DNA of 64,000 bases. Origin: Candidatus Lindowbacteria bacterium RIFCSPLOWO2_12_FULL_62_27 (GTDB lineage Bacteria; Lindowbacteria; 2-12-FULL-62-27). Positions 1,162 through 32,566 of this stretch are shown here, one piece after another (the stretch's first letter is position 1; each line of letters opens with the position of its first letter). The stretch spans positions 62,001 to 126,000 of the forward strand of contig MFPR01000020.1 of the NCBI GenBank assembly GCA_001784175.1, written 5' to 3'. The notes below the pieces were generated by a model, which worked only from the letters and a program-made list of their open reading frames with translations, did not search any database and was not told the origin of the DNA. The translations under genes and the position numbers were made by a program.

Positions 1162-1424
1162 GCGCGGTCATGATGCTCCTGTCCGCCGCCGCGCTCTTGT
1201 ATGTCTTCTCGGCGTTTTTGAGCGATCCGGCCGGCGTCGGAGACGCCGGCACTTGGGGCGCCGGAGGCGCTGATCCGCCGTCACCGGCCGCCCGCGCGGC
1301 CGAAGCGATCGCCGAGATGGAAATGGATCTTGCCGCCGGAAAGATTTCCAGGGAGGATTTCGAGACGATCCGCAGTCAGGCCGTCGCGGAGTTGGCGGCG
1401 GAATTAAAGAAAGGACGCGCATGA
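1149..1424 (+). CDS. Small membrane protein, CcmI N-terminal-like
   Basis: N-terminal TM helix then 'EMEMDLAAGKISREDF' resembling the CcmI-1 domain; overlaps both neighbours. Confidence 0.6.
   Translation: MAIVGAVMMLLSAAALLYVFSAFLSDPAGVGDAGTWGAGGADPPSPAARAAEAIAEMEMDLAAGKISREDFETIRSQAVAELAAELKKGRA
1226..1277 (+). repeat. Intragenic palindromic element, copy 1
   Basis: ccggccggcgtcggagacgccggcacttggggcgccggaggcgctgatccg; 9-bp stem gccggcgtc/gacgccggc; near-identical copies at 2321-2371 (inverted) and 3743-3796. Confidence 0.9.
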
Positions 1425-3699: not shown

Positions 3700-4674
3700 A
3701 TGAGCGATTCGACCGGCCCGGAGGTTGGTCCGGAGGCGAAATTCCGGCCGGCGTCAGAGACGCCGGCACCTGGGGCGCCAGAGGCGCTGTTCCGCCCCCA
3801 GCTTCTGGTGCAGTGGTTTGTCATCCCGCTTCTCGTGGTGGGCTTGTGTGTCGGGCTGTATCTCAGTTTCCGGCTGCTGATGCTGGAGAGCAAGACGACG
3901 GAAGACTATTTGAACGAGCTGCGAAGCGGCAACCCGCATCGCGCCTGGCAGGCCGCGTTTGCGCTCGCCAACCAGGTCAATCTCGGCCGCCTCCCGGAAC
4001 ACGAACAGTCTGCGGTCGGCCGGCAGCTCCTCGAGATGCTGGACCAGAGTTCGGCCGGCGCAGGCGAAATCCGGCACTATCTGATTCTGACCCTGGGCCG
4101 GCTCCGGTACTCGGAGGCCGTTCCGCGCTTGCTCGCATTGGCCGACGGCGCGGACGCGACGGAAAAAATATACGCGCTGCTGGCGCTGGGAGAGATCAAA
4201 CCGGTCGAGGCGATCGACGCCGTGTCCCGGTCGCTGAATGATCCGGACCCGGGCGTCCGGAAAACCGCCGCGCATCTTTTCGCTGTGCTGAATCGCCCGC
4301 TGCCCGCCGGCCGGGTCAGCGCCTATACCCTGCCGCCGGACTGGCCGGTGCGCCTTCGGCCGGTCCTGAACGATCCGGTTGCGGACGTCCGATGGAACGC
4401 GGCGATTTCACTTGCCGAGTTCCGCGACCCGGCGGCCATTCCAGTGCTGGCCGGTATGCTGGACCGGCCGGTGCTGGCGGCCGAGCTGAAAGAATTCGGC
4501 GGACTTGACGAAACGAAGGTCGAAAAGATAATCAAGGCGGCACTGGCCGCAAGCCTGCAGTATCGGGATGCCGGCCTGGGCGGGAAAATCCAGACGCTGG
4601 CTGAATCGGATCCCAACGCCGCGGTGCAGGCGACTGCCCGACAGGCCTTGGAGCGCTTAAGAGGGACGAATTAA
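3700..4674 (+). CDS. Membrane-anchored HEAT/PBS-lyase repeat protein
   Basis: One N-terminal TM helix; repeats LNDPDPGVRKTAA, LNDPVADVRWNAA, ESDPNAAVQATA. Confidence 0.85.
   Translation: MSDSTGPEVGPEAKFRPASETPAPGAPEALFRPQLLVQWFVIPLLVVGLCVGLYLSFRLLMLESKTTEDYLNELRSGNPHRAWQAAFALANQVNLGRLPEHEQSAVGRQLLEMLDQSSAGAGEIRHYLILTLGRLRYSEAVPRLLALADGADATEKIYALLALGEIKPVEAIDAVSRSLNDPDPGVRKTAAHLFAVLNRPLPAGRVSAYTLPPDWPVRLRPVLNDPVADVRWNAAISLAEFRDPAAIPVLAGMLDRPVLAAELKEFGGLDETKVEKIIKAALAASLQYRDAGLGGKIQTLAESDPNAAVQATARQALERLRGTN
3743..3796 (+). repeat. Intragenic palindromic element, copy 3
   Basis: tccggccggcgtcagagacgccggcacctggggcgccagaggcgctgttccgcc; 4 mismatches to copy 1. Confidence 0.88.
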
Positions 4675-5223
4675 ATGGCGGAACAACCACAATCCCCAAA
4701 CGTCGAACCCAAACCCGCCGCACTTGGGGCGCCGGAGGCGCGGACCCGGCGCGGGTTTTTCAAGTGGCTGGGCGGCGCATGGGCGGCGTTTACGGCCGGC
4801 GTCGGCATGATGAACATTCTGACGGTCCGATTCCTCTATCCGAACGTGCTGTTCATTCCGCCCACCGACGTCAAAGTTGGCTTGCCGGAGGAATTCCAGG
4901 TGGGTCAGGTGGACACGCGGTTCAAGGACAAATTCGGGTTCTGGATCGTGCGGACCGAGGAGGGATTCTACGCCGTGTCGACGGTCTGCACCCACCTCGG
5001 CTGCCAGCCCAACTGGCTGGAGGCGGAACAGAAATTCAAATGCCCGTGCCACGGATCAGGATTTTATGTTTCGGGGATCAATTTCGAGGGCCCGGCGCCC
5101 CGGCCGCTTGAGCGGTTCCGCATCGTCCTCGCGGACGACGGGCAGATCTTGGTGGACAAGTCGAGAAAGTATCAGCATGAGTTAGGGCAATGGACAGACC
5201 CAGAGGCGTTCCTCAGAGTTTAA
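4675..5223 (+). CDS. qcrA: Rieske 2Fe-2S subunit of a Rieske/cytochrome b complex
   Basis: Tat-like TRRGFF, TM helix, CTHLGC and CPCHGS boxes, GPAPRPL. Confidence 0.95.
   Translation: MAEQPQSPNVEPKPAALGAPEARTRRGFFKWLGGAWAAFTAGVGMMNILTVRFLYPNVLFIPPTDVKVGLPEEFQVGQVDTRFKDKFGFWIVRTEEGFYAVSTVCTHLGCQPNWLEAEQKFKCPCHGSGFYVSGINFEGPAPRPLERFRIVLADDGQILVDKSRKYQHELGQWTDPEAFLRV
4720..4741 (+). repeat. Intragenic element, partial copy 4
   Basis: 22-bp exact match gcacttggggcgccggaggcgc to the right half of copy 1. Confidence 0.7.
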
Positions 5224-10292: not shown

Positions 10293-12587
10293 ATGATTCG
10301 CAAGCAAACGATGGGGATGATGGGATGTTTGGCTTTGATGTTTGTCCTTGCCTGCACGGTTCCTTCCTTCGCTACATTTACAGAGGACACGATGGTGTTG
10401 AGGGGCACGACGGATACGTCGTCGAGTACTTTCAACGCCGCCGGCGGCCTGAATGGAGATACGAATGTGACGACCATGCTGGATGTGGCCGTGGACAGTT
10501 CGGGACAGATGTATTTCCTGCATTTTCACAGCGAAGCGGGTGACACGGAGATTTTGATCACCAAATATGACAACGCCGGTAATTTCAAATCGGTTCTGAC
10601 GGTCGACGACAATCCGGAAACGGATATTGTCATGATGGCGCTGGCGGTCAACAAGCAGTCGGGTGCCATCTATGTCGCTGCTGCCGGTTTGACGGGTGCC
10701 TTGTACCTGTATACGGATACAGGTCCACACACGAACTCACGTTTTACGGTTGACACCATCCAGTTCGGTCTGATCAACATGGACTCCAAATTCGGTTCAG
10801 TGGACGTCACGGTGTTTGGCAAGAGCACCGTCGATTCCGTGTATGTGGTCGCTATTTCAGACACTACATTTCGGCCAACTGGAAATCGTGATTCTGGTGT
10901 CCTGCTGTGGAGATTTAACCATACCGGAATGATCACCGACACCAAGGTTCTGATCCGGAGAAACGACACGGAGGCGGAAGACACCCTGGCTCTAAGCCGG
11001 GGTTCCATTCCGGCGAGGGTTCTGATTGAGGCCATCGATACGGATAAAATCGCCGTTGTGTCGATCGGCCGCGCTCCGTACCCGGCGCGGTTGGGCGGGG
11101 TCGGCTACGATACGGGCAAGTACGGTGTGTATTATGACACGTTCCAAATCGGCCCGGATGGGACGATCGTCACAGATTCCATGGCCGATACGATAACGGT
11201 CCTGGCCGACTCCGTGACGGTCAATTCCATCGCGGCGTTCGACATGAAGTGGGATACCTTCAACAACCGGATCGTAATCTATTACGCGCTTCGGACTTCT
11301 TCCACCAAGCTGTCCAGAATCTACATCCCGGCCTTTGGGTACTTCACATCTTCCGGGAGCAACACGGCAGTTTCCGACAATTTTTCCTTCGATACTCTGC
11401 CGTCGGCCATTTCGTTGAGCATCCACAAGCTGACGGGGCAGTCCGTGAAGGAGCATCTCGCGTATCGTTCCCGAGGGGCGGGAACGATTCACTACATTAA
11501 ACGGGAAGCTGATGCGACGACGGGAAACGTCGAGATCGACACGGTAGCCGGCACTCGTGACCGTGCCAGTGGATCCGTCTCCTTGAGCGATTCGTTGCCG
11601 GTCGTGATCGCCGTCACGAACGACGGCGCGCCCAGGATCGCGTATGAGCAGCGGGTGCATAACCAGATTTTCATCAACCTCGCGCGCCAACAGGGCGCGT
11701 CGGTGGCGAGCGGGGAGAACGTGTCGGTCACAACGTCCCAGACGTTCACGTCCTCCTCCGGCGCCGGCACGGCGTCGGCGCCGCTGGTTTCCACCATCGT
11801 CCCTGCGTTCAACAGTACGATTGACAGCCCGGCGCAGCTCGCCCAGATCGCGTTGACGTCCTCTCCGACCTCTCCCGCCACGTCCTCGTCCGGGCTTACC
11901 GATTTCACCACGCCGTCGTATGTGGTCGCGGTCCCGCTCGGAAACGCGCACGGGGACACGCTCACGGTTCAGCTTAAGGCGACGGGCAACGGCGCCGGCG
12001 TCGCGGTCTACATGCGCCGCCTGACCGACACGAATCCGTCGGGCGGAATGGGCGGCAGCAGCTCGACGCCGGACACCAGCGTGTTCGCGGGCCTGTCTGA
12101 CTCCCAGTTCACGGCTTGCGCCCAGACTTGGGTGAAAATCCGGCTGGGCGACACCGCCGGCAACGTCTATGACGACAACGCCTTTTCCGACACCCTCGCC
12201 GTCCGGCTGTCCTTCACGCTGACGCCGGCCGTGCTGGCGTCGTTGATGAATGCGGGCATCGACACTACCCCGGGCCAGCTTGCGGTGTGGGTCCTGAACA
12301 GCAGCAACGCGTTCGTTCAGATCGGAAATTCGTCCGCCTACACGCAGACCGAACTGAACGCCGGCGGCGCCGTGACGCTTGTATCCAACACCATCACGAG
12401 CTTCTCGCCGGGTGGCGTTGCGAAAGCGGTGGGTGCCGCGTCCGGAAGCGACGGCGGCATCTGTTTGATGGGCCGCTGCGTCGAAAGCGCCTCTCCTGCG
12501 GCCGGCGCGTTCCGGTCGGTGCGGGACACGTTTCTATCGAGCAAAGTGGGCCGCGTGTTGACGTCGCTGTATTATCGGATGAAGTAA
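10293..12587 (+). CDS. Secreted Ser/Thr- and Asp-Thr-rich surface protein with CFI-box-CTERM-like tail
   Basis: Signal peptide (LALMFVLACTVPSFA); about 24 DT dipeptides; C-terminus GGICLMGRC...FRSVRDTFL...GRVLTSLYYR. Confidence 0.8.
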   Translation: MIRKQTMGMMGCLALMFVLACTVPSFATFTEDTMVLRGTTDTSSSTFNAAGGLNGDTNVTTMLDVAVDSSGQMYFLHFHSEAGDTEILITKYDNAGNFKSVLTVDDNPETDIVMMALAVNKQSGAIYVAAAGLTGALYLYTDTGPHTNSRFTVDTIQFGLINMDSKFGSVDVTVFGKSTVDSVYVVAISDTTFRPTGNRDSGVLLWRFNHTGMITDTKVLIRRNDTEAEDTLALSRGSIPARVLIEAIDTDKIAVVSIGRAPYPARLGGVGYDTGKYGVYYDTFQIGPDGTIVTDSMADTITVLADSVTVNSIAAFDMKWDTFNNRIVIYYALRTSSTKLSRIYIPAFGYFTSSGSNTAVSDNFSFDTLPSAISLSIHKLTGQSVKEHLAYRSRGAGTIHYIKREADATTGNVEIDTVAGTRDRASGSVSLSDSLPVVIAVTNDGAPRIAYEQRVHNQIFINLARQQGASVASGENVSVTTSQTFTSSSGAGTASAPLVSTIVPAFNSTIDSPAQLAQIALTSSPTSPATSSSGLTDFTTPSYVVAVPLGNAHGDTLTVQLKATGNGAGVAVYMRRLTDTNPSGGMGGSSSTPDTSVFAGLSDSQFTACAQTWVKIRLGDTAGNVYDDNAFSDTLAVRLSFTLTPAVLASLMNAGIDTTPGQLAVWVLNSSNAFVQIGNSSAYTQTELNAGGAVTLVSNTITSFSPGGVAKAVGAASGSDGGICLMGRCVESASPAAGAFRSVRDTFLSSKVGRVLTSLYYRMK

Positions 12588-12607
12588 TTTAAGGATCGCA
12601 TTCGTTC

Positions 12608-12657
12608 CTCCCCACTTCCGACGGCTGGCCATACTGTTGGAAGTGGGGAGTTTTTTT
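12608..12657 (+). terminator. Rho-independent terminator
   Basis: Stem ctccccacttccgacgg/ctgttggaagtggggag followed by a T7 run. Confidence 0.85.
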
Positions 12658-12691
12658 ATTCGGAATTGGGGGCTTGGGAATAGAGAAGTAA

Positions 12692-13215
12692 GTCTCACGC
12701 AAAGGCGCGAAGGTGCAAAGGCGCAAAGAAAACATGACGTAGCGGTGAGGGAAGCGTTTGACTGAGAATGAGATTGCCGCCATTGTTGTGGATGTGGCGT
12801 ATAAGATCCATGTCAAACTGGGGCCGGGGGTTTTCGAGTCCGTCTACGAAGCCGTTATGACACGTGCGCTCACGAAACGTGGACTCGAGGTGAAACGACA
12901 ATATCCGATCCCGGTCAGCTATGACGGTGAGGAGTTTGATGAAGGATTCCGCGCCGACCTCATCATCGAGAACAAAGTTATCATCGAATTGAAATCCCAA
13001 GAAACCGTCTTGCCCGTCCATAAAAAACAATTGCTCACCTATCTGCGTCTGTCGGGGTTGAGGCTCGGACTGCTCATCAATTTCGGCCAAGAATATATCA
13101 AAAACGGAATCCATCGCGTAGTCAACGGCCTTCCGGATGAGTCCTCCTCCTCATAACCCCAAGTATATGTTTCTCCGCGTCTCGCGCTTTGTGTCTTTGC
13201 GCCTTTGCGTGAGAC
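12692..13215. mobile_element. Putative small element: GxxExxY gene flanked by terminal inverted repeats with 8-bp periodic arrays
   Basis: Left end gtctcacgcaaaggcgc(g)aag; right end reverse complement gtctcacgcaaaggcgc(a)aag (17 bp perfect); internal GCGCAAAG-like iterations. Confidence 0.6.
12758..13156 (+). CDS. GxxExxY protein (PD-(D/E)XK-like nuclease family)
   Basis: GPGVFESVYE motif, RADLIIENKVIIELKS, QLLTYL...GLLINFG. Confidence 0.95.
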   Translation: MTENEIAAIVVDVAYKIHVKLGPGVFESVYEAVMTRALTKRGLEVKRQYPIPVSYDGEEFDEGFRADLIIENKVIIELKSQETVLPVHKKQLLTYLRLSGLRLGLLINFGQEYIKNGIHRVVNGLPDESSSS

Positions 13216-13237
13216 CCCATGGTTTCTAATCTTCCTG

Positions 13238-14077
13238 TCACCATTCCAGTTGATTTCTCAATAACTTTCCGTACATCCGGGGCGGCAGGAAGGCGTGGGC
13301 GTGGATTTCCGCGCTGTAGAATTTTGTCTTGACAGAATGCCTTCTTCTCATTTTCCTCGGCGTCCATTTCCGGGACGCCACCGCGAAGCTCCACCAGTTG
13401 CTCGGATAGGTCGCGATCGGCGCGGTGTAGAGATCGACGATGGGAAAATGCCGTTTGAGTTTTCGTTGCATCGCGATGATCGTTTTCTTGTGAAAGTGCA
13501 TCGATTCGGTGTGGGTCACGAAGAAGCCGTCGGCGCTCAGGCAATGTTTGACGAGCTTGAAAAAATTGTCCGTAAACAGGGTGTTTGCGATTCCCGTGAT
13601 GTTGGTGGAATCAACGATGACCGCGTCGATATTCTCCGGTTTGCCGTCTCTCAAGAAGGCCGCCCCGTCGCCTACGTGAATCTCAACCTTGTCGTCATCC
13701 ACGCGCCCGGCCACCTTCGGAAAAAACCTCCGGGAAACATCGATCACTTCCCCGTCCAATTCGGCGAAAAAGACCTTCTCAACCGTCCTGTGTTTCAACA
13801 CCTCCCGCACGATCCCGCCGTCGCCGCCGCCGATGACGATGATCCTGCGAGGCGCCGGATGCGCGTGCATCACGACGTGCGTGAGCATCTCGTGATAGAA
13901 AAATTCGTCCCGCTCGGTGATCTGCACGGCGTCGTCCAGGATCAGCATCCGGCCGAAATACTTGTGCTCGGCCACCATGATCTTCTGGTATTTGCTCTTG
14001 TGCCGATACAGCACCCTCTCAATGTCATAGGAAAAAATGACGGGCGAGTACCGCGCATTTTCTGAGAATCTGGCCAC
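13238..14077 (-). CDS. speE: Spermidine synthase (polyamine aminopropyltransferase)
   Basis: SKYQKI, LDDAVQITERDEFFYHEML, GGGDGG, IVDST. Confidence 0.95.
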   Translation of the reverse strand: MARFSENARYSPVIFSYDIERVLYRHKSKYQKIMVAEHKYFGRMLILDDAVQITERDEFFYHEMLTHVVMHAHPAPRRIIVIGGGDGGIVREVLKHRTVEKVFFAELDGEVIDVSRRFFPKVAGRVDDDKVEIHVGDGAAFLRDGKPENIDAVIVDSTNITGIANTLFTDNFFKLVKHCLSADGFFVTHTESMHFHKKTIIAMQRKLKRHFPIVDLYTAPIATYPSNWWSFAVASRKWTPRKMRRRHSVKTKFYSAEIHAHAFLPPRMYGKLLRNQLEW

Positions 14078-14144
14078 CGTGTCACCTCCGATTTCTCACG
14101 CGAAGACGTATCTTATCTCATCTTCAAAAATTTTAGCAATTTTC

Positions 14145-14173
14145 TTGACATTGGGGTTCAAAGTTGCGATATT
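14145..14173 (+). promoter_or_regulatory. Possible sigma70 promoter for speD
   Basis: TTGACA-17 bp-GATATT with TGn extension, in an AT-rich divergent spacer. Confidence 0.45.
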
Positions 14174-14202
14174 TCGTGAACATTTGCGCAAAGAGGTGAA
14201 GG

Positions 14203-14610
14203 ATGAAGCAGTTGGGGAAGCATTTGCTGGTTGAGCTGTATGATTGCGATCCGAAGCTGTTGAACAATACGTCGACTGTGGAGCGTGAGATGCAGCGCGC
14301 GGCGCGCGCGGCCAAGGCCACCATTGTGCGGTCGACCTTTCACACCTTCAGTCCCTGGGGCGTTTCCGGGGTTGTCCTCATTGCCGAATCTCATCTCACC
14401 ATTCACACCTGGCCCGAACACAATTACGCCGCCATCGACATTTTCACCTGCGGCGGGTCCGTCGAACCCTATACGGCCTATCAGGTCCTGAAAGACGCGT
14501 TTCGGTCGAAAAATTCATCCGTGATCGAACTCAAGCGGGGCCTGATCGAAGGCGCCGTCGAAAAGGCGCGCAAAATCGCCCGCCGGAGCCGCGCAAAGCA
14601 GCCCGCCTAA
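14203..14610 (+). CDS. speD: S-adenosylmethionine decarboxylase proenzyme
   Basis: GKHLLVELYDC, GVSGVVLIAE-SHLTIHTWPE autocleavage site, DIFTCG. Confidence 0.96.
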   Translation: MKQLGKHLLVELYDCDPKLLNNTSTVEREMQRAARAAKATIVRSTFHTFSPWGVSGVVLIAESHLTIHTWPEHNYAAIDIFTCGGSVEPYTAYQVLKDAFRSKNSSVIELKRGLIEGAVEKARKIARRSRAKQPA

Positions 14611-14633
14611 ATTCATTTCCTCCTGTTTGACCC

Positions 14634-15551
14634 TTGAAGATATTTCTGACCGGCGCTTCCGGCTTTGTCGGATCGCACCTGGCGCGGCTTCTGGTACGCG
14701 CCGGCCACGAGGTCCATGCGCTTCTAAGGCCGGGCGCGTCCGTCGAGCGCATCGGCGACATCCTGGATCGGCTGGCCGTCGTGGAGGGGGATCTCAAACG
14801 ACAGGATGAGTGGTTCGCGCGGATCGACCGCGGCCGGCCGGAAGTGTGGGTTCACCTCGCTTGGATCGCCACACCGGGCGTTTATCTCAAAAGCCCCGAA
14901 AATACGGAGTACGTGGCCGCGAGCCTGCAACTCGCCAAACGGCTGGCTGAGACGGGATGCCGGCGATTCGTTGCGGCGGGCACGTGTTTTGAATATGCCC
15001 CGTCGACCACTGCGCTTTCGGAAAGTGCGCCCACCGGCCCGCGAACGATCTACGCGGCTTCCAAGCTGGAATTCGAAGTATCGATCGAGCGTCTGGCGGC
15101 GTCGTGGGGCGTTCATTTTGTCTGGCCTCGGCTCTTTTACCTCTACGGCCCCGGCGAGCATGAAAAGCGGCTGGTGCCGGTTCTGATCCGCTCGCTGTTA
15201 AGAAATGAAATCGCGAAACTGGCCTCCGGAGACAGGGTGTTTGATTACCTGCACGTCGAAGACGTCGCGGCCGGAATCTGGGCGGCTGCTCAATCGGATC
15301 TTCGCGGCCCCGTCAACATCGCGTCGGGCCGGCCCGTCACGCTGCGGGATCTGGCGGAGGAGGTCGAGCGGCAGATCGGCGTGGCCGGTCTTTTGGCGTT
15401 TGACGCTTATGCGTCCGATCCGATCGACCTCGCACACGTGCTGGGTGACAACCGCCGGCTCCTCAGCACGGGCTGGAAACCGCGATACACGCTTCAGGAG
15501 GGGATTCGGCAAACGATTGAGTGGTGGAAAAACAGGATGCGCGCGAATTGA
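14634..15551 (+). CDS. NAD-dependent epimerase/dehydratase (extended SDR)
   Basis: TGASGFVG, GTCFEY, YAASK, RLFYLYGPGE. Confidence 0.9.
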   Translation: MKIFLTGASGFVGSHLARLLVRAGHEVHALLRPGASVERIGDILDRLAVVEGDLKRQDEWFARIDRGRPEVWVHLAWIATPGVYLKSPENTEYVAASLQLAKRLAETGCRRFVAAGTCFEYAPSTTALSESAPTGPRTIYAASKLEFEVSIERLAASWGVHFVWPRLFYLYGPGEHEKRLVPVLIRSLLRNEIAKLASGDRVFDYLHVEDVAAGIWAAAQSDLRGPVNIASGRPVTLRDLAEEVERQIGVAGLLAFDAYASDPIDLAHVLGDNRRLLSTGWKPRYTLQEGIRQTIEWWKNRMRAN

Positions 15552-15681: not shown

Positions 15682-16593
15682 TTACGGCCGCCTGAACCCC
15701 AGCGCCTGGAGGATGTCGTGGAACATGTGTTTGGTCCGGCGGGCGAGAAAGAAGAAGGCGACGCTGGCGAGCATGACGGGCTTTCGGCGGATGGAGTGGG
15801 GCGAGCGCAGGACGGCCGTCAGGTGATCAAAGAACTGCCGCCAGTGCGTCATCCACATTCGGAAATATTTTGGTTTGGGGCACGTCGCCGGATAAAAAGT
15901 CGTCTTATACCGCTCCAGCACGTCCCGGAGATGCGCGGAGGGTTTGGTTTTCCGGAAGTACATCAGGTCTTCGTGCACGCAGGCGATGGCGCCGATGAGG
16001 GAAAGCTCAAAAATCAGCAGGTTGTCCGGTGAGATGACATGGTGGTACATCCGTGTCCGCCGCAGGGCATCGGCGCGAAAGAGTCCGCCTATTTGATTGC
16101 ACCCGCTGGATGACCAGAGCATGATGTTGAGTCTGGACACAACGTTGAGGGCCCGGGTGTCCATCCAGGCATTGAACCGAGGATCCGATATCACTTTACC
16201 GTCCGTGTCGATCACGGGGATCAGAGGATAGGCGCAAACCACGGCCGGGTTCGATTCGAGGACCGGCAGGAGTTGCGAAATGTAGTTGGGCCGCCAGAGG
16301 TCGTGGCCGGCCGCCCACATGAAGAAGGGCGCGCGGGCCTGGCGGAACACGAAGTTCTGGTGATCGATGATGCCCAGCCGGGACGGCTGGCGAAACAACC
16401 GGACGCGCTTGTCGCGCTCCGCGTATTGCCCACATATGTCGCCGGTCCCGTCCGTGGAGTTATCGTCGGAAAGGATCAGCTCAAAATCGGTGAAGTCCTG
16501 CGCCAGCAGGGACTCGATGGCTTCGCGCGCAAACCTCCCGTCGTTGTAGGAGGTGAATCCGATACTGACGCGCGGGCTTGCTGGATCCGGCAT
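15682..16593 (-). CDS. Glycosyltransferase family 2 (paralog A)
   Basis: VSIG...YN, FELILSDDNSTDGT, FFMWAAGHDLW. Confidence 0.9.
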   Translation of the reverse strand: MPDPASPRVSIGFTSYNDGRFAREAIESLLAQDFTDFELILSDDNSTDGTGDICGQYAERDKRVRLFRQPSRLGIIDHQNFVFRQARAPFFMWAAGHDLWRPNYISQLLPVLESNPAVVCAYPLIPVIDTDGKVISDPRFNAWMDTRALNVVSRLNIMLWSSSGCNQIGGLFRADALRRTRMYHHVISPDNLLIFELSLIGAIACVHEDLMYFRKTKPSAHLRDVLERYKTTFYPATCPKPKYFRMWMTHWRQFFDHLTAVLRSPHSIRRKPVMLASVAFFFLARRTKHMFHDILQALGFRRP

Positions 16594-32458: not shown

Positions 32459-32566
32459 TCCCCTCTCCCCCGAAGGGGGAGAGGGTTAGGGTGAGGGGGT
32501 CCCTCGGCGCCGGAAATGGCCACCCTCACCCCAGCCCTCTCCCGCCAGAGGCGGGAGAGGGGGAAA
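32459..32566 (-). repeat. Bipartite REP-like element, family A copy 3 (inverted)
   Basis: Reverse complement ccctctcccgcctctggcgggagagggctggggtgagggtgg...ccctcaccctaaccctctcccccttcgggggagagggga. Confidence 0.85.

What the first reader, a model, noticed from the sequence alone, without database searches (positions are those of the whole stretch)
12692..13215. GxxExxY nuclease-like gene packaged as a 524-bp unit with terminal inverted repeats and 8-bp iterons
Seen: left end gtctcacgcaaaggcgcgaaggtgcaaaggcgcaaag; right end on the reverse strand gtctcacgcaaaggcgcaaagacacaaagcgcgagacgcggag. That is 17 bp of perfect terminal inversion continuing inward as GCGCAAAG-like units. The only gene inside is GxxExxY, there is no DDE transposase, no obvious target duplication, and the unit sits between a terminator and the speE stop. 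Established: GxxExxY proteins are PD-(D/E)XK-like, of unknown function and often multicopy. Inference: a minimal selfish element whose nuclease recognises the iterons; the ends could also pair in RNA to loop out the ORF.
Basis: partly seen in the sequence, partly recalled or inferred. Interest (0 to 1): 0.7.

Follow-up and report, generated by a model that had tools for sequence, protein, structure and literature searches.

The report
Nuclease gene bracketed by cognate repeats
A tiny nuclease gene sits between two mirror-image arrays of an 8-letter DNA word, and the same gene-plus-word package recurs in many distant bacterial phyla, which marks it as a mobile unit of a kind that is barely described.

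Summary
Window 12692-13215 is a 524-bp unit. It holds an intact 132-aa GxxExxY / PD-(D/E)XK gene between inverted arms: 17 nt perfect, 29 nt at 86%. The arms are 8-nt words (N-CGCAAAG) and end in CTCAC.

The design is not local. Of the 80 nearest relatives (53-68% aa identity, 15 named phyla), 77 had usable flanks. In 43 of those 77 a flanking inverted repeat was found without any word model, and all 43 arms carry the same word class. The arms stay 27/27 identical where synonymous sites are saturated.

Paralogues in one genome carry different words. A Nostocales site shows four states: empty, gene-less hairpin, and cassette in either orientation. A sister genus holds two copies with sharp borders at the arms. 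Some genomes hold 80-100 gene-less arrays but only one or two cognate genes.

Best reading (confidence about 0.5): a REP/RAYT-like or homing-like selfish unit whose nuclease acts on its own word arrays. Binding and cleavage are inferred, not shown. The main rival is an RNA stem like that of rRNA intervening sequences.

No paper that my searches reached links this gene family to repeats. This scan has noted the same design in other genomes.

The parts
12608..12657 (+). Context: hairpin (15-nt arms, 93%) plus T-run after the 785-aa upstream ORF. It is the probable terminator and marks the left limit of the spacer that holds the unit.
   Evidence: pair I3
12692..12729 (+). Left arm: outer end GTCTCA followed by four 8-nt words in the phase N-CGCAAAG (CGCAAAG, CGCGAAG, TGCAAAG, CGCAAAG).
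   Evidence: consensus of relatives
12747..12754 (+). Purine-rich stretch GAGGGAAG 3 nt before the start codon, a probable ribosome-binding site. No sigma-70-like promoter was found between the arm and the gene.
   Evidence: 0 promoter-like sites in 12400-13400
12758..13156 (+). GxxExxY gene, 132 aa, TTG start. The N-terminus MTENEIA aligns with the starts of relatives. E27, D67, E77 and K79 of the PD-(D/E)XK site are invariant in 33 sequences.
13180..13215 (+). Right arm: a degenerate word, then three words read as the complement (CTTTGTG, CTTTGCG, CTTTGCG), then the outer end TGAGAC.
   Evidence: In most metagenome contigs that match this arm, position 13192 reads C, which restores the canonical word.
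12692..13215 (.). The whole 524-bp unit (arms plus gene).
   Evidence: Borders are inferred from the conserved CTCAC end in relatives and from the two-copy unit in a sister genus.
13238..14077 (-). Context: speE (spermidine synthase), convergent with the unit. Its stop codon lies 22 nt from the right arm.

Best explanation
The unit is a complete, single-copy member of a widespread repeat-plus-nuclease system. A small PD-(D/E)XK nuclease gene of the GxxExxY family travels together with inverted arrays of its subfamily's own 8-nt word (N-CGCAAAG, outer end CTCAC).

Shown here:
- Gene and arms form one unit with sharp borders.
- The unit is gained, lost, duplicated, found in either orientation at one site, and spread across phyla.
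- The word sequence itself, not only the pairing of the arms, is under purifying selection.
- The protein is under purifying selection.
- Gene-less copies of the arrays can reach about 100 per genome, beside one or two cognate genes.

Inferred:
- The encoded nuclease, probably as a dimer or higher oligomer, reads the iterated words on the palindromic, hairpin- or cruciform-prone arrays and nicks or cuts there.
- Host replication or recombination then copies arms plus gene, or arms alone, into other arrays or hairpin loops.
- Because the arms are symmetric, insertion can go in either orientation and leaves no target duplication.

In working logic the unit stands between a REP-RAYT system (cognate enzyme gene flanked by the repeats it propagates) and a homing endonuclease gene (gene sitting inside its own palindromic target). 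In this genome the family has not proliferated: the only arrays of these exact words are the two arms.
For: (1) Anatomy is confirmed and far beyond chance.

(2) In 77 loci of the nearest relatives, the best upstream-versus-reversed-downstream alignment scores 18 or more in 43. In the same loci shifted by 1 kb, 0 of 77 reach even 15.

(3) Those 43 arms were found without any word model. Of them, 36 hold at least two CGCnAAG words, 7 hold at least two words of the wider class, and 0 hold neither. The background is 17 of 6,222 windows.

(4) The word consensus and the outer T, C and C at positions -3, -2 and -4 are near-invariant (46/46, 45/46, 38/46). Positions beyond -5 are not conserved.

(5) Arms are 27/27 identical between two Nostocales loci whose synonymous divergence is 1.16.

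(6) dN/dS is 0.02-0.23 in 10 pairs. 77 of 80 relatives have complete frames.

(7) Words go with protein subfamily. Paralogues in the same Nostocales genome carry CGCAAAG, CGCAGAG, AATCCGT or AATCCTG words. Sister genera of this genome carry CCAGGAAG or CACAAAAGG words. Non-canonical words cluster on the protein tree: 9 label changes against a shuffled mean of 11.9, as low in 0 of 200 shuffles.

(8) Occupancy varies at one Nostocales site: empty, gene-less hairpin, cassette on the + strand, and a 75-77% identical cassette on the - strand, all at the same junction.

(9) Two copies about 95% identical over roughly 445 bp, with unrelated flanks, lie in a same-family genome.

(10) The array count is 100, 73 and 44 in three Nostocales genomes and 97 and 83 in two Planctomycetota genomes, with a reversed-pattern control of 0-1. 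These genomes hold 1-2 high-scoring cognate genes each.

(11) Among 151 cyanobacterial genomes, all 11 with a gene scoring 194 bits or more have arrays, against 7 of the other 140.

(12) The phyla are thoroughly mixed on the protein tree.
Against: - No binding, cutting or transposition was observed. No solved or characterised close homologue exists: the best fold matches are generic PD-(D/E)XK proteins with Z of at most 8.2.
- The layout is not uniform. The nearest arrays are F...R in only 35 of 80 loci. Eight are R...F, others have whole hairpins on one or both sides, and 2 have none.
- Seven cyanobacterial genomes hold arrays without a high-scoring gene, one of them with no match at all at E up to 1e-10.
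- In Nostocales most arrays are single and sit inside a larger element with its own terminal repeats, so they may spread by that element's means.
- RAYT-type Y1 transposase genes are present in all 5 array-rich genomes checked and in this genome, so a trans-acting enzyme is not excluded.
- The genome counts come from related genomes, which are not independent.
- In this genome the unit is single-copy, and a strain about 3% diverged has it at the same place, so no recent movement is visible here.
Confidence: 0.5

Rival explanations
1. RNA-level cassette, as in ORF-bearing intervening sequences of 23S rRNA. The arms are transcribed with the gene and pair into a long stem that closes the ORF in a loop. 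The stem is cut by RNase III or shields the message. The words are only a by-product of how such stems arise.
For: The arms abut the start codon and no promoter-like site lies between arm and gene, so the arms are probably in the transcript. The minimum-energy and centroid RNA folds of 12685-13222 both close with the terminal arms (z = -4.34; 0 of 100 shuffles fold as well). Arms of one locus share more deviations from the consensus than arms of different loci: 46 of 213 (0.216) against a permuted mean of 0.129 and a maximum of 0.205 in 1000 permutations. There is a precedent: the Coxiella IVS is excised by RNase III (abstract of PMC4990558).
Against: Pairing alone does not need one word to be kept across 15 phyla while synonymous sites saturate. 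78% of deviations are not mirrored in the partner arm. Arrays also occur singly, in R...F order, and as gene-less alternating clusters. The upstream array nearest the gene is in the opposite sense in 23 of 80 loci. No RNA data could be laid.
Confidence: 0.2
2. The arrays are REP/MITE-like repeats moved by another enzyme in trans, such as a RAYT-type Y1 transposase or the transposase of the larger element that carries them. The GxxExxY gene is then a passenger or addiction/defence gene caught between two arrays.
For: This genome holds about ten RAYT-like genes (Y1_Tnp 6.9e-16 and 2.5e-7 for the two tested). Each sits between inverted repeats that hold two 8-9-nt sub-repeats, and gene-less hairpins with the same sub-repeats lie elsewhere. 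Y1_Tnp matches occur in 5 of 5 array-rich genomes. In Nostocales the array is an integral part of a roughly 125-bp element with its own terminal repeats: 33 of 33 matches to the element's inner flanks hold the array.
Against: The word class co-varies with the GxxExxY subfamily, not with the host or with any RAYT examined. The RAYT flanks in this genome have different sequences. What crosses phyla together is this gene plus these words. Y1_Tnp is common anyway: it is found in 6 of 14 control genomes.
Confidence: 0.15
3. A domesticated site-specific DNA-binding or cutting protein, for instance a regulator, a nucleoid or defence factor, or a restriction-like enzyme. The arrays are its operators or protected sites. 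The unit spreads only by ordinary horizontal transfer and recombination, not by its own activity.
For: Strong purifying selection on the protein. The unit is stable at this site in a diverged strain. Binding sites next to the gene that encodes their binder is a common arrangement for autoregulation (general knowledge, not tested).
Against: This reading does not explain 80-100 gene-less arrays in intergenic hairpins and alternating clusters. Nor does it explain the empty, solo and two-orientation states at one site or the whole-unit duplication with sharp borders. Relatives are rare on plasmids (7 of 72,556 records) and were not found in 50,697 phage records, so no obvious vehicle is seen.
Confidence: 0.1
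4. Chance inverted repeat next to an ordinary small gene.
For: None beyond the fact that short GC-rich inverted repeats are common in a 61% G+C genome (574 pairs with arms of 20 nt or more, within 2.5 kb).
Against: as described above.
Confidence: 0.01

Closest known systems
REP / REPIN elements with their RAYT genes (REP-associated tyrosine transposases; Nunvar et al. 2010, PMC2817692, abstract and passages read; Bertels & Rainey 2011, PMC3116915, passages read)
   Same: A single-copy enzyme gene is flanked by two copies of a short repeat in inverted orientation. The same repeat is dispersed in tens to hundreds of gene-less copies, often as inverted doublets and alternating clusters. Enzyme and repeat trees go together. 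No target duplication is seen.
   Different: The enzyme here is a roughly 130-aa PD-(D/E)XK nuclease, not an HUH/Y1 transposase. The repeat is a tandem array of 3-4 8-nt words rather than one imperfect palindrome with a GTAG-type head. The package is spread over at least 15 phyla. In this genome there are no dispersed copies of these words.
ORF-bearing intervening sequences of 23S rRNA (for example the Coxiella burnetii IVS with S23p; PMC4990558, abstract read)
   Same: A small ORF of 400-500 bp is closed by complementary ends that can form a long stem. The element is horizontally acquired and described as selfish. The four-helix-bundle (PF05635) genes of this genome have the same design of inverted word arrays.
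   Different: The unit is not in an rRNA gene. Its protein is a different family. The ORF is under strong purifying selection, not decaying. Arm sequence, not only pairing, is conserved.
Homing endonuclease genes, including PD-(D/E)XK-type ones (recalled from general knowledge; no paper read)
   Same: A lone nuclease gene sits inside a sequence that exists elsewhere uninterrupted (the gene-less hairpin). Alleles with and without the gene occur at one site. No transposase and no target duplication are present.
   Different: The presumed target is a multi-copy palindromic word array rather than a unique site in a conserved gene. Cleavage is untested. Either orientation occurs at one site.
Tandem heptamer/octamer repeats of bacteria: GGGAATC of Xanthomonas with 70-75 convergent pairs (PMC4692102, passages read); TAACTGA of Beggiatoaceae, Cyanobacteria and Bacteroidetes (PMC4679880, passages read); cyanobacterial STRR and small dispersed repeats (recalled; Elhai et al. 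2008 could not be opened)
   Same: Short-period intergenic tandem words, often in convergent pairs, with a patchy cross-phylum distribution that suggested horizontal transfer with no known mechanism.
   Different: In the passages I read, those papers tie the repeats to no gene. Here a specific word class is tied to a specific nuclease subfamily.

Membership tests
GxxExxY protein (NCBIfam TIGR04256) / PDDEXK_3 (Pfam PF13366) | Full-length match above the curated cut-off | tested here: met
   137.8 bits against a cut-off of 35, profile positions 2-116 of 116. 136.3 bits against a cut-off of 22, positions 2-117 of 117.
PD-(D/E)XK nuclease superfamily | Alpha-beta core with the catalytic E ... D ... 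E-x-K residues kept | tested here: met
   E27, D67, E77 and K79 are invariant in 33 sequences. Model pLDDT is 92.2. Fold matches are Cas4, Hjc, restriction enzymes and lambda-exonuclease-like proteins, with Z 5-8.2. Activity was not tested.
REP-RAYT system | The associated gene is an HUH/Y1 (IS200-like) transposase | tested here: not met
   The gene is PF13366. It has no Y1_Tnp match.
REP-RAYT system | The gene is flanked by two copies of the repeat in inverted orientation | tested here: met
REP-RAYT system | The same repeat is dispersed in many gene-less copies in the host genome | tested here: inconclusive
   Not met in this genome: the exact words occur only at the two arms. Met in other hosts: 44-100 copies.
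23S rRNA intervening sequence | Located within a 23S rRNA gene and removed from the precursor by RNase III | tested here: not met
   The unit lies between protein-coding genes and no Rfam match was found in 11500-14800. Processing is not testable with these tools.
Insertion sequence / MITE | Terminal inverted repeats plus a target-site duplication and a known transposase (for a MITE, a transposase supplied in trans) | tested here: not met
   Inverted ends are present. No duplication is seen at this unit, at the multi-copy gene-less elements or at the two-copy unit. No transposase family matches.
Homing endonuclease gene | Alleles with and without the gene at the same site, with the gene interrupting its own recognition sequence | tested here: inconclusive
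   Empty, gene-less-hairpin and filled states occur at one Nostocales site. Recognition and cleavage were not tested.

The most novel reading that the evidence does not exclude
GxxExxY proteins are the enzymes of a new class of minimal mobile element. A lone PD-(D/E)XK nuclease of about 130 aa reads tandem 7-10-nt words and, with host repair or replication, propagates both itself and gene-less word arrays. Each protein subfamily has its own word. If so, this system, together with the parallel four-helix-bundle cassettes, is a main source of the long-unexplained excess of heptamer/octamer tandem repeats and word-built hairpins in bacterial intergenic DNA across phyla.
Probability: 0.35. Interest if true: 0.85.

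Novelty: new variant of a known kind. Interest (0 to 1): 0.7.

Why it matters
GxxExxY / PF13366 is a very large family of tiny genes with no known function. The 2012 PD-(D/E)XK survey lists it as 'Unknown, multiple transfers' (PMC3424549). Short-period tandem repeats and their convergent pairs are a known but unexplained feature of many bacterial genomes.

Tying one word class to one nuclease subfamily across phyla gives both puzzles a concrete hypothesis that can be tested at the bench: protein plus its array. If the nuclease is sequence-specific for an iterated 8-nt word, it would also be a new kind of programmable-looking recognition module, with different words for different subfamilies.

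For annotation, such arms should not be mistaken for terminators, riboswitches or CRISPR-like arrays.

Tried and rejected
- **Rfam**: no match at E up to 1 in window 11500-14800.
- **RNA evidence**: no RNA holder was listed among the sequencing runs, so expression and end mapping could not be examined.
- **Empty site in close kin of this genome**: only three same-family genomes exist among those held, and the spacer there is rearranged. G001 has a gene-less hairpin of other words. G002 has a toxin-antitoxin pair, a transposase fragment and a TPR gene. speE there is of another type and place. No clean empty allele was found.
- **Array as a separate insertion into the Nostocales carrier element**: all 33 matches to the element's inner flanks hold the array, three of them with two words, so no array-free copy was found.
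- **RAYT absence test**: Y1_Tnp is present in all 5 array-rich genomes, so the test does not discriminate.
- **Vehicles**: 7 of 72,556 plasmid records, mostly very large replicons, and no phage record hold a relative at E up to 1e-5.
- **Dimer prediction**: complex prediction was never accepted because the queue was full. The oligomeric state is therefore open.
- **Literature**: searches for GxxExxY (3 papers, none on function), PDDEXK_3, PF13366/TIGR04256, a 15-nt piece of the arm, heptamer repeats with hairpins, and small dispersed repeats found no paper that links this family to repeats. Elhai et al. 2008 on very small cyanobacterial repeats could not be opened and may describe the Nostocales array. 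Subscription journals are largely outside the library.
- **Wasted or incomplete scripts**: one search printed nothing. In one search, two pairs that involved the window failed and are not counted.
- **Tree**: the tree is the quick one, because the careful search did not finish.

Full report
**1. The observation**

The repeat finder reports arms 12692-12720 and 13187-13215 (29 nt, 86% complementary, 466 nt apart). It also reports a second register of 15 nt at 100% and an 8-nt direct periodicity in the left arm.

The outer 17 nt are a perfect inversion. With up to two mismatches that 17-mer is found twice in the window, at the two arms, and never in 100 shuffles. A 14-mer of the end occurs only at these two places in the whole 4.39-Mb, 44-contig genome.

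Read in the phase N-CGCAAAG, the left arm has four words and the right arm three.

The gene between the arms (12758-13156, TTG start, 132 aa) is a full-length GxxExxY / PDDEXK_3 protein: 1.9e-40 and 7.7e-40.

The unit lies 42 nt after a hairpin plus T-run that follows a 785-aa ORF with no family match. It lies 22 nt before the stop of a convergent speE, and an AdoMet decarboxylase gene follows. No direct repeat flanks the unit.

**2. The design recurs in this genome, with other words**

The genome has three GxxExxY genes.
- The copy at C28:253416 is 59% identical to the target. It sits between arms of CGCGAAGG/CGCAAAGG words, and these are in turn nested inside a second inverted pair built of GGGTTCGA words.
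- The third copy is 29% identical. It overlaps the stop of the gene before it and has only a downstream hairpin of CACGAAGGAG words.
- Seven further arrays of that CACGAAGG type lie elsewhere in the genome. In all, 16 arrays of three or more words of the wider class are found, against 1 in the reversed genome.

Four-helix-bundle genes (TIGR02436 / PF05635, five hits) are wrapped in the same way, by 7-8-nt words of other sequence.

A genome-wide scan for inverted repeats (574 pairs) also brought up about ten genes of roughly 300 aa. The two that I tested are Y1_Tnp (RAYT-like). Each lies between inverted repeats that contain two 8-9-nt sub-repeats, and gene-less hairpins of the same sub-repeats occur elsewhere.

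**3. The target's subfamily carries the same word in many phyla**

A scan of one genome per species with an alignment of the three local copies found 441 relatives. The best 80 are 53-68% identical to the target. By record titles and tree labels they come from 15 named phyla, among them Planctomycetota, Cyanobacteriota, Bacteroidota, Verrucomicrobiota, Acidobacteriota, Nitrospirota, Bacillota, Chloroflexota and Pseudomonadota.

Inverted repeats around the gene:
- For the 77 loci with at least 150 nt on both sides, I aligned 300 nt upstream against the reverse complement of 300 nt downstream.
- The score is 18 or more in 43 loci and 15 or more in 50. In the same loci shifted by 1 kb, 0 of 77 reach 15.
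- Upstream flanks paired with the downstream flank of a different locus still reach 18 in 20 of 77. This already shows that the arms of different organisms are alike.
- All 43 arms found in this word-blind way hold the word class: 36 with at least two CGCnAAG words and 7 with at least two words of the wider class C[GA]Cn[AG]AG. The background is 17 of 6,222 30-nt windows.

Array density and layout:
- Word arrays are 22 times denser within 300 nt of the genes (212 in 52,804 bp) than in the rest of the loci (45 in 247,663 bp).
- The layout varies. The nearest arrays are forward...reverse in 35 of 80 loci and reverse...forward in 8. Whole hairpins on one or both sides account for most of the rest, and 2 loci have no array.

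**4. What is conserved**

In the 23 loci with three words at exact 8-nt spacing in both arms, the consensus is (C)TC(A) CGCAAAG R CGCnAAG R CGCAAAG R.
- The three letters before the first word were not part of my search pattern, yet they are T 46/46, C 45/46 and C 38/46. Letters further out are not conserved.
- The unit therefore ends at CTCAC.
- The fourth letter of each word and the spacer letter vary freely.
- Only 46 of 213 deviations from the consensus are shared by the two arms of a locus. That is more than in 1000 permutations (mean 0.129, maximum 0.205), but it leaves 78% unmirrored.

So selection acts first on the identity of each word and only second on arm-to-arm complementarity.

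Selection on the arms is real. Two Nostocales loci with synonymous divergence of 1.16 have arms identical at 27 of 27 positions.

The protein is also constrained:
- dN/dS is 0.02-0.23 in the 10 pairs computed.
- 77 of 80 relatives have complete frames. Two are broken and one is cut by a contig end.
- E27, D67, E77 and K79 are invariant.
- The model is confident (pLDDT 92.2) and has a generic PD-(D/E)XK fold. The nearest solved chains are a Spirosoma restriction-endonuclease-like protein (Z 8.2), BpuSI, CinB, Cas4 (Foldseek E 9e-4), Hjc and XisH. None is close enough to transfer a function.

**5. Words go with the protein, not with the host**

- In single Nostocales genomes the GxxExxY paralogues carry different words: CGCAAAG, CGCAGAG, AATCCGT and AATCCTG.
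- In the three same-family genomes of this organism the genes are of other subfamilies, with CCAGGAAG/GCAGGAA words (two genera) or 9-nt CACAAAAGG words.
- On a quick maximum-likelihood tree of 80 proteins, 68 have CGCnAAG words. The GAG-ending words fall mostly in one supported clade. The labels need 9 changes, against 11.9 when shuffled, and no shuffle in 200 is as low. Phyla are intermingled.

**6. Gain, loss and copying**

Around the Anabaena copy, 41 related genomes were compared.
- Ten genomes have the cassette in one piece with both flanks (88-94% identity).
- Four genomes have, at the same junction, a cassette whose gene lies on the other strand and is only 75-77% identical.
- One genome has a 43-nt gene-less hairpin of two words per arm.
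- One genome, with flanks 80% identical, has the two convergent genes abutting with no arm at all.
- One genome has 831 bp of other repeats.
- In the remaining genomes the flanks lie apart and the state was not resolved.

In genome G003, of the same family as this organism, two copies about 95% identical over roughly 445 bp lie on different contigs. Homology starts and stops at the arms and the flanks are unrelated.

For the window itself, Logan contigs of a run from another study hold the unit at the same place. Two contigs of 307 and 495 nt carry 9 and 17 differences and bridge arm-to-gene and gene-to-arm-to-speE. Many other short contigs in four runs join a left-arm-like piece to a right-arm-like piece over 19-36 other letters. 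These are gene-less hairpins of the same words, most likely in other organisms, because the matching sides are only 22-28 nt.

**7. Gene-less arrays**

Copy numbers:
- The 27-nt arm, with up to 3 mismatches, occurs 100, 73 and 44 times in three Nostocales genomes. The reversed control gives 0.
- The three-word pattern occurs 97 and 83 times in two Planctomycetota genomes, 17 and 18 times in a Verrucomicrobiota and a Flavobacteriaceae genome, and 0 times in a Pseudohongiella genome whose arms use a 9-nt variant.
- These genomes have one or two genes scoring 194 bits or more with the subfamily profile.

Forms of the arrays:
- In Nostocales most arrays are single and sit in the middle of a roughly 125-bp element with its own terminal repeats.
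- In the planctomycete they form multi-copy units of about 130 bp, built as forward array, purine-rich stretch, inner hairpin of CACGGAG words, reverse array. These units end exactly at CTCAC/GTGAG and show no target duplication.
- There are also reverse-spacer-forward units with a conserved 12-nt spacer, and alternating clusters like BIMEs.

Among 151 evenly drawn cyanobacterial genomes, 18 have arrays. All 11 genomes with a gene scoring 194 bits or more are among them. Of the other 140, 7 have arrays (1-13 copies). The genomes with 19 or more arrays all have the gene. These genomes are kin, so this is an association, not a statistical test.

**8. Reading**

The evidence shows a unit of gene plus cognate arms that is selected as such, moves within and between genomes, and has gene-less derivatives or targets.

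I think the most likely mechanism is that the nuclease reads its own iterated words and cuts at the arrays, after which host repair or replication does the copying. Five observations fit this:
- the conserved word,
- the conserved CTCAC end,
- the lack of a target duplication,
- the two orientations at one site, which are expected for a symmetric target,
- the nesting of one word-hairpin in the loop of another.

This is inference. No tool here can show binding or cleavage.

The RNA-stem reading remains possible as an added layer, since the arms do close the fold. A trans-acting Y1 transposase cannot be excluded.

**9. What is known**

In the library searched, no paper links GxxExxY / PF13366 to repeats.
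- The family appears as 'Unknown ... multiple transfers' in the 2012 PD-(D/E)XK survey and as a neighbour label in one reverse-transcriptase paper.
- Heptamer repeats and their convergent pairs are described without an associated gene.
- REP-RAYT and rRNA intervening sequences are the nearest described systems.

Earlier notes of this scan report the same design, GxxExxY or four-helix-bundle genes between inverted word arrays, in at least eight other genomes. They agree with what I found here but are not independent evidence.

- the cross-phylum conservation of one word class with one subfamily,
- the conserved terminal motif,
- the test against synonymous saturation,
- the four-state site,
- the two-copy unit in a sister genus,
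- the REP/BIME-like population structure of the gene-less arrays.

Noticed in passing
L199 (G000:C1:98200-99400), L200 (C44:3700-4950), L202 (C43:154800-156000) and about seven more places listed: About ten RAYT-like genes of roughly 290-330 aa (Y1_Tnp; one has a weak DnaA C-terminal HTH match). Each sits between inverted repeats that hold two 8-9-nt sub-repeats (for example TTGACTTT, TAGACTTA, TAAGTTGT). Gene-less hairpins of the same sub-repeats lie elsewhere (for example C11:14981-15033 and 15968-16020; C20:232697-232996). This looks like a REP-RAYT-like system in a lineage far from the gammaproteobacteria where it was defined.
   Followed up: partly
L201 (G000:C4:214900-219500): A 4.5-kb cluster in which the same 36-44-nt arm of AGAAGAC words recurs seven times in alternating orientation. 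The arms separate an AbiEii-type nucleotidyltransferase gene, a four-helix-bundle gene (PF05635, 1.5e-35), a retropepsin-like aspartic protease gene, and a truncated second four-helix-bundle copy that is itself interrupted by other word hairpins.
   Followed up: partly
L021:4255-4375 (G001, same family): At the position that corresponds to the window's unit (after the homologue of the 785-aa ORF, before speH), the sister genus has a gene-less hairpin built of CACAGAG-type words followed by a T-run. In G002 the same spacer holds a toxin-antitoxin-like pair, a transposase fragment and a TPR gene. The spacer is a hot spot.
   Followed up: partly
window 13238-14077 compared with L021:5090-5614 and L022:6220-6744: speE of this genome is only about 31% identical to the speE-like gene of the two sister genera. 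It also lies on the other side of speH and on the opposite strand. The polyamine locus has been rebuilt, perhaps together with the arrival of the unit.
   Followed up: no
window 1227-1277, 2321-2371, 3744-3794, 4720-4749 (C20:63227-66749): A 51-nt, roughly 80% G+C sequence recurs in alternating orientation at about 1-1.4-kb spacing. Similar copies lie on C31, C33 and C38. Not examined.
   Followed up: no
own genome, for example C1:18818-18871, C1:193429-193496, C13:37714-37769 and at least 12 more: A perfect palindromic repeat built of the 8-nt unit TGATATCA (AAAGTGATATCATGATATCATGATAG and its complement) is dispersed over many contigs.
   Followed up: no
own genome, for example C1:281636-281656, C14:45241-45306, C20:94477-94543 (= window 32477-32543): GGGAGAGGGTnGGGGTGAGGG-type palindromic elements. 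I only saw the repeats.
   Followed up: no
L141-L170 (Nostocales), for example L141:1390-1640: The 27-nt CGCAAAG array sits as a single copy in the centre of a roughly 125-bp element with its own terminal repeats (GGCGTTGCTGA ... TCAGCAACGCC). Copies have three words or, in 3 of 33 matches, two. This may be one of the named small dispersed repeats of cyanobacteria, but that paper could not be opened.
   Followed up: partly
L171-L178, L184-L187 (Planctomycetaceae genome G227): Units of reverse array, GTGAG, a conserved 12-nt spacer, CTCAC, forward array. They look like abutted element ends. Runs of alternating arrays are flanked by CCTCATC-type heptamers.
   Followed up: no
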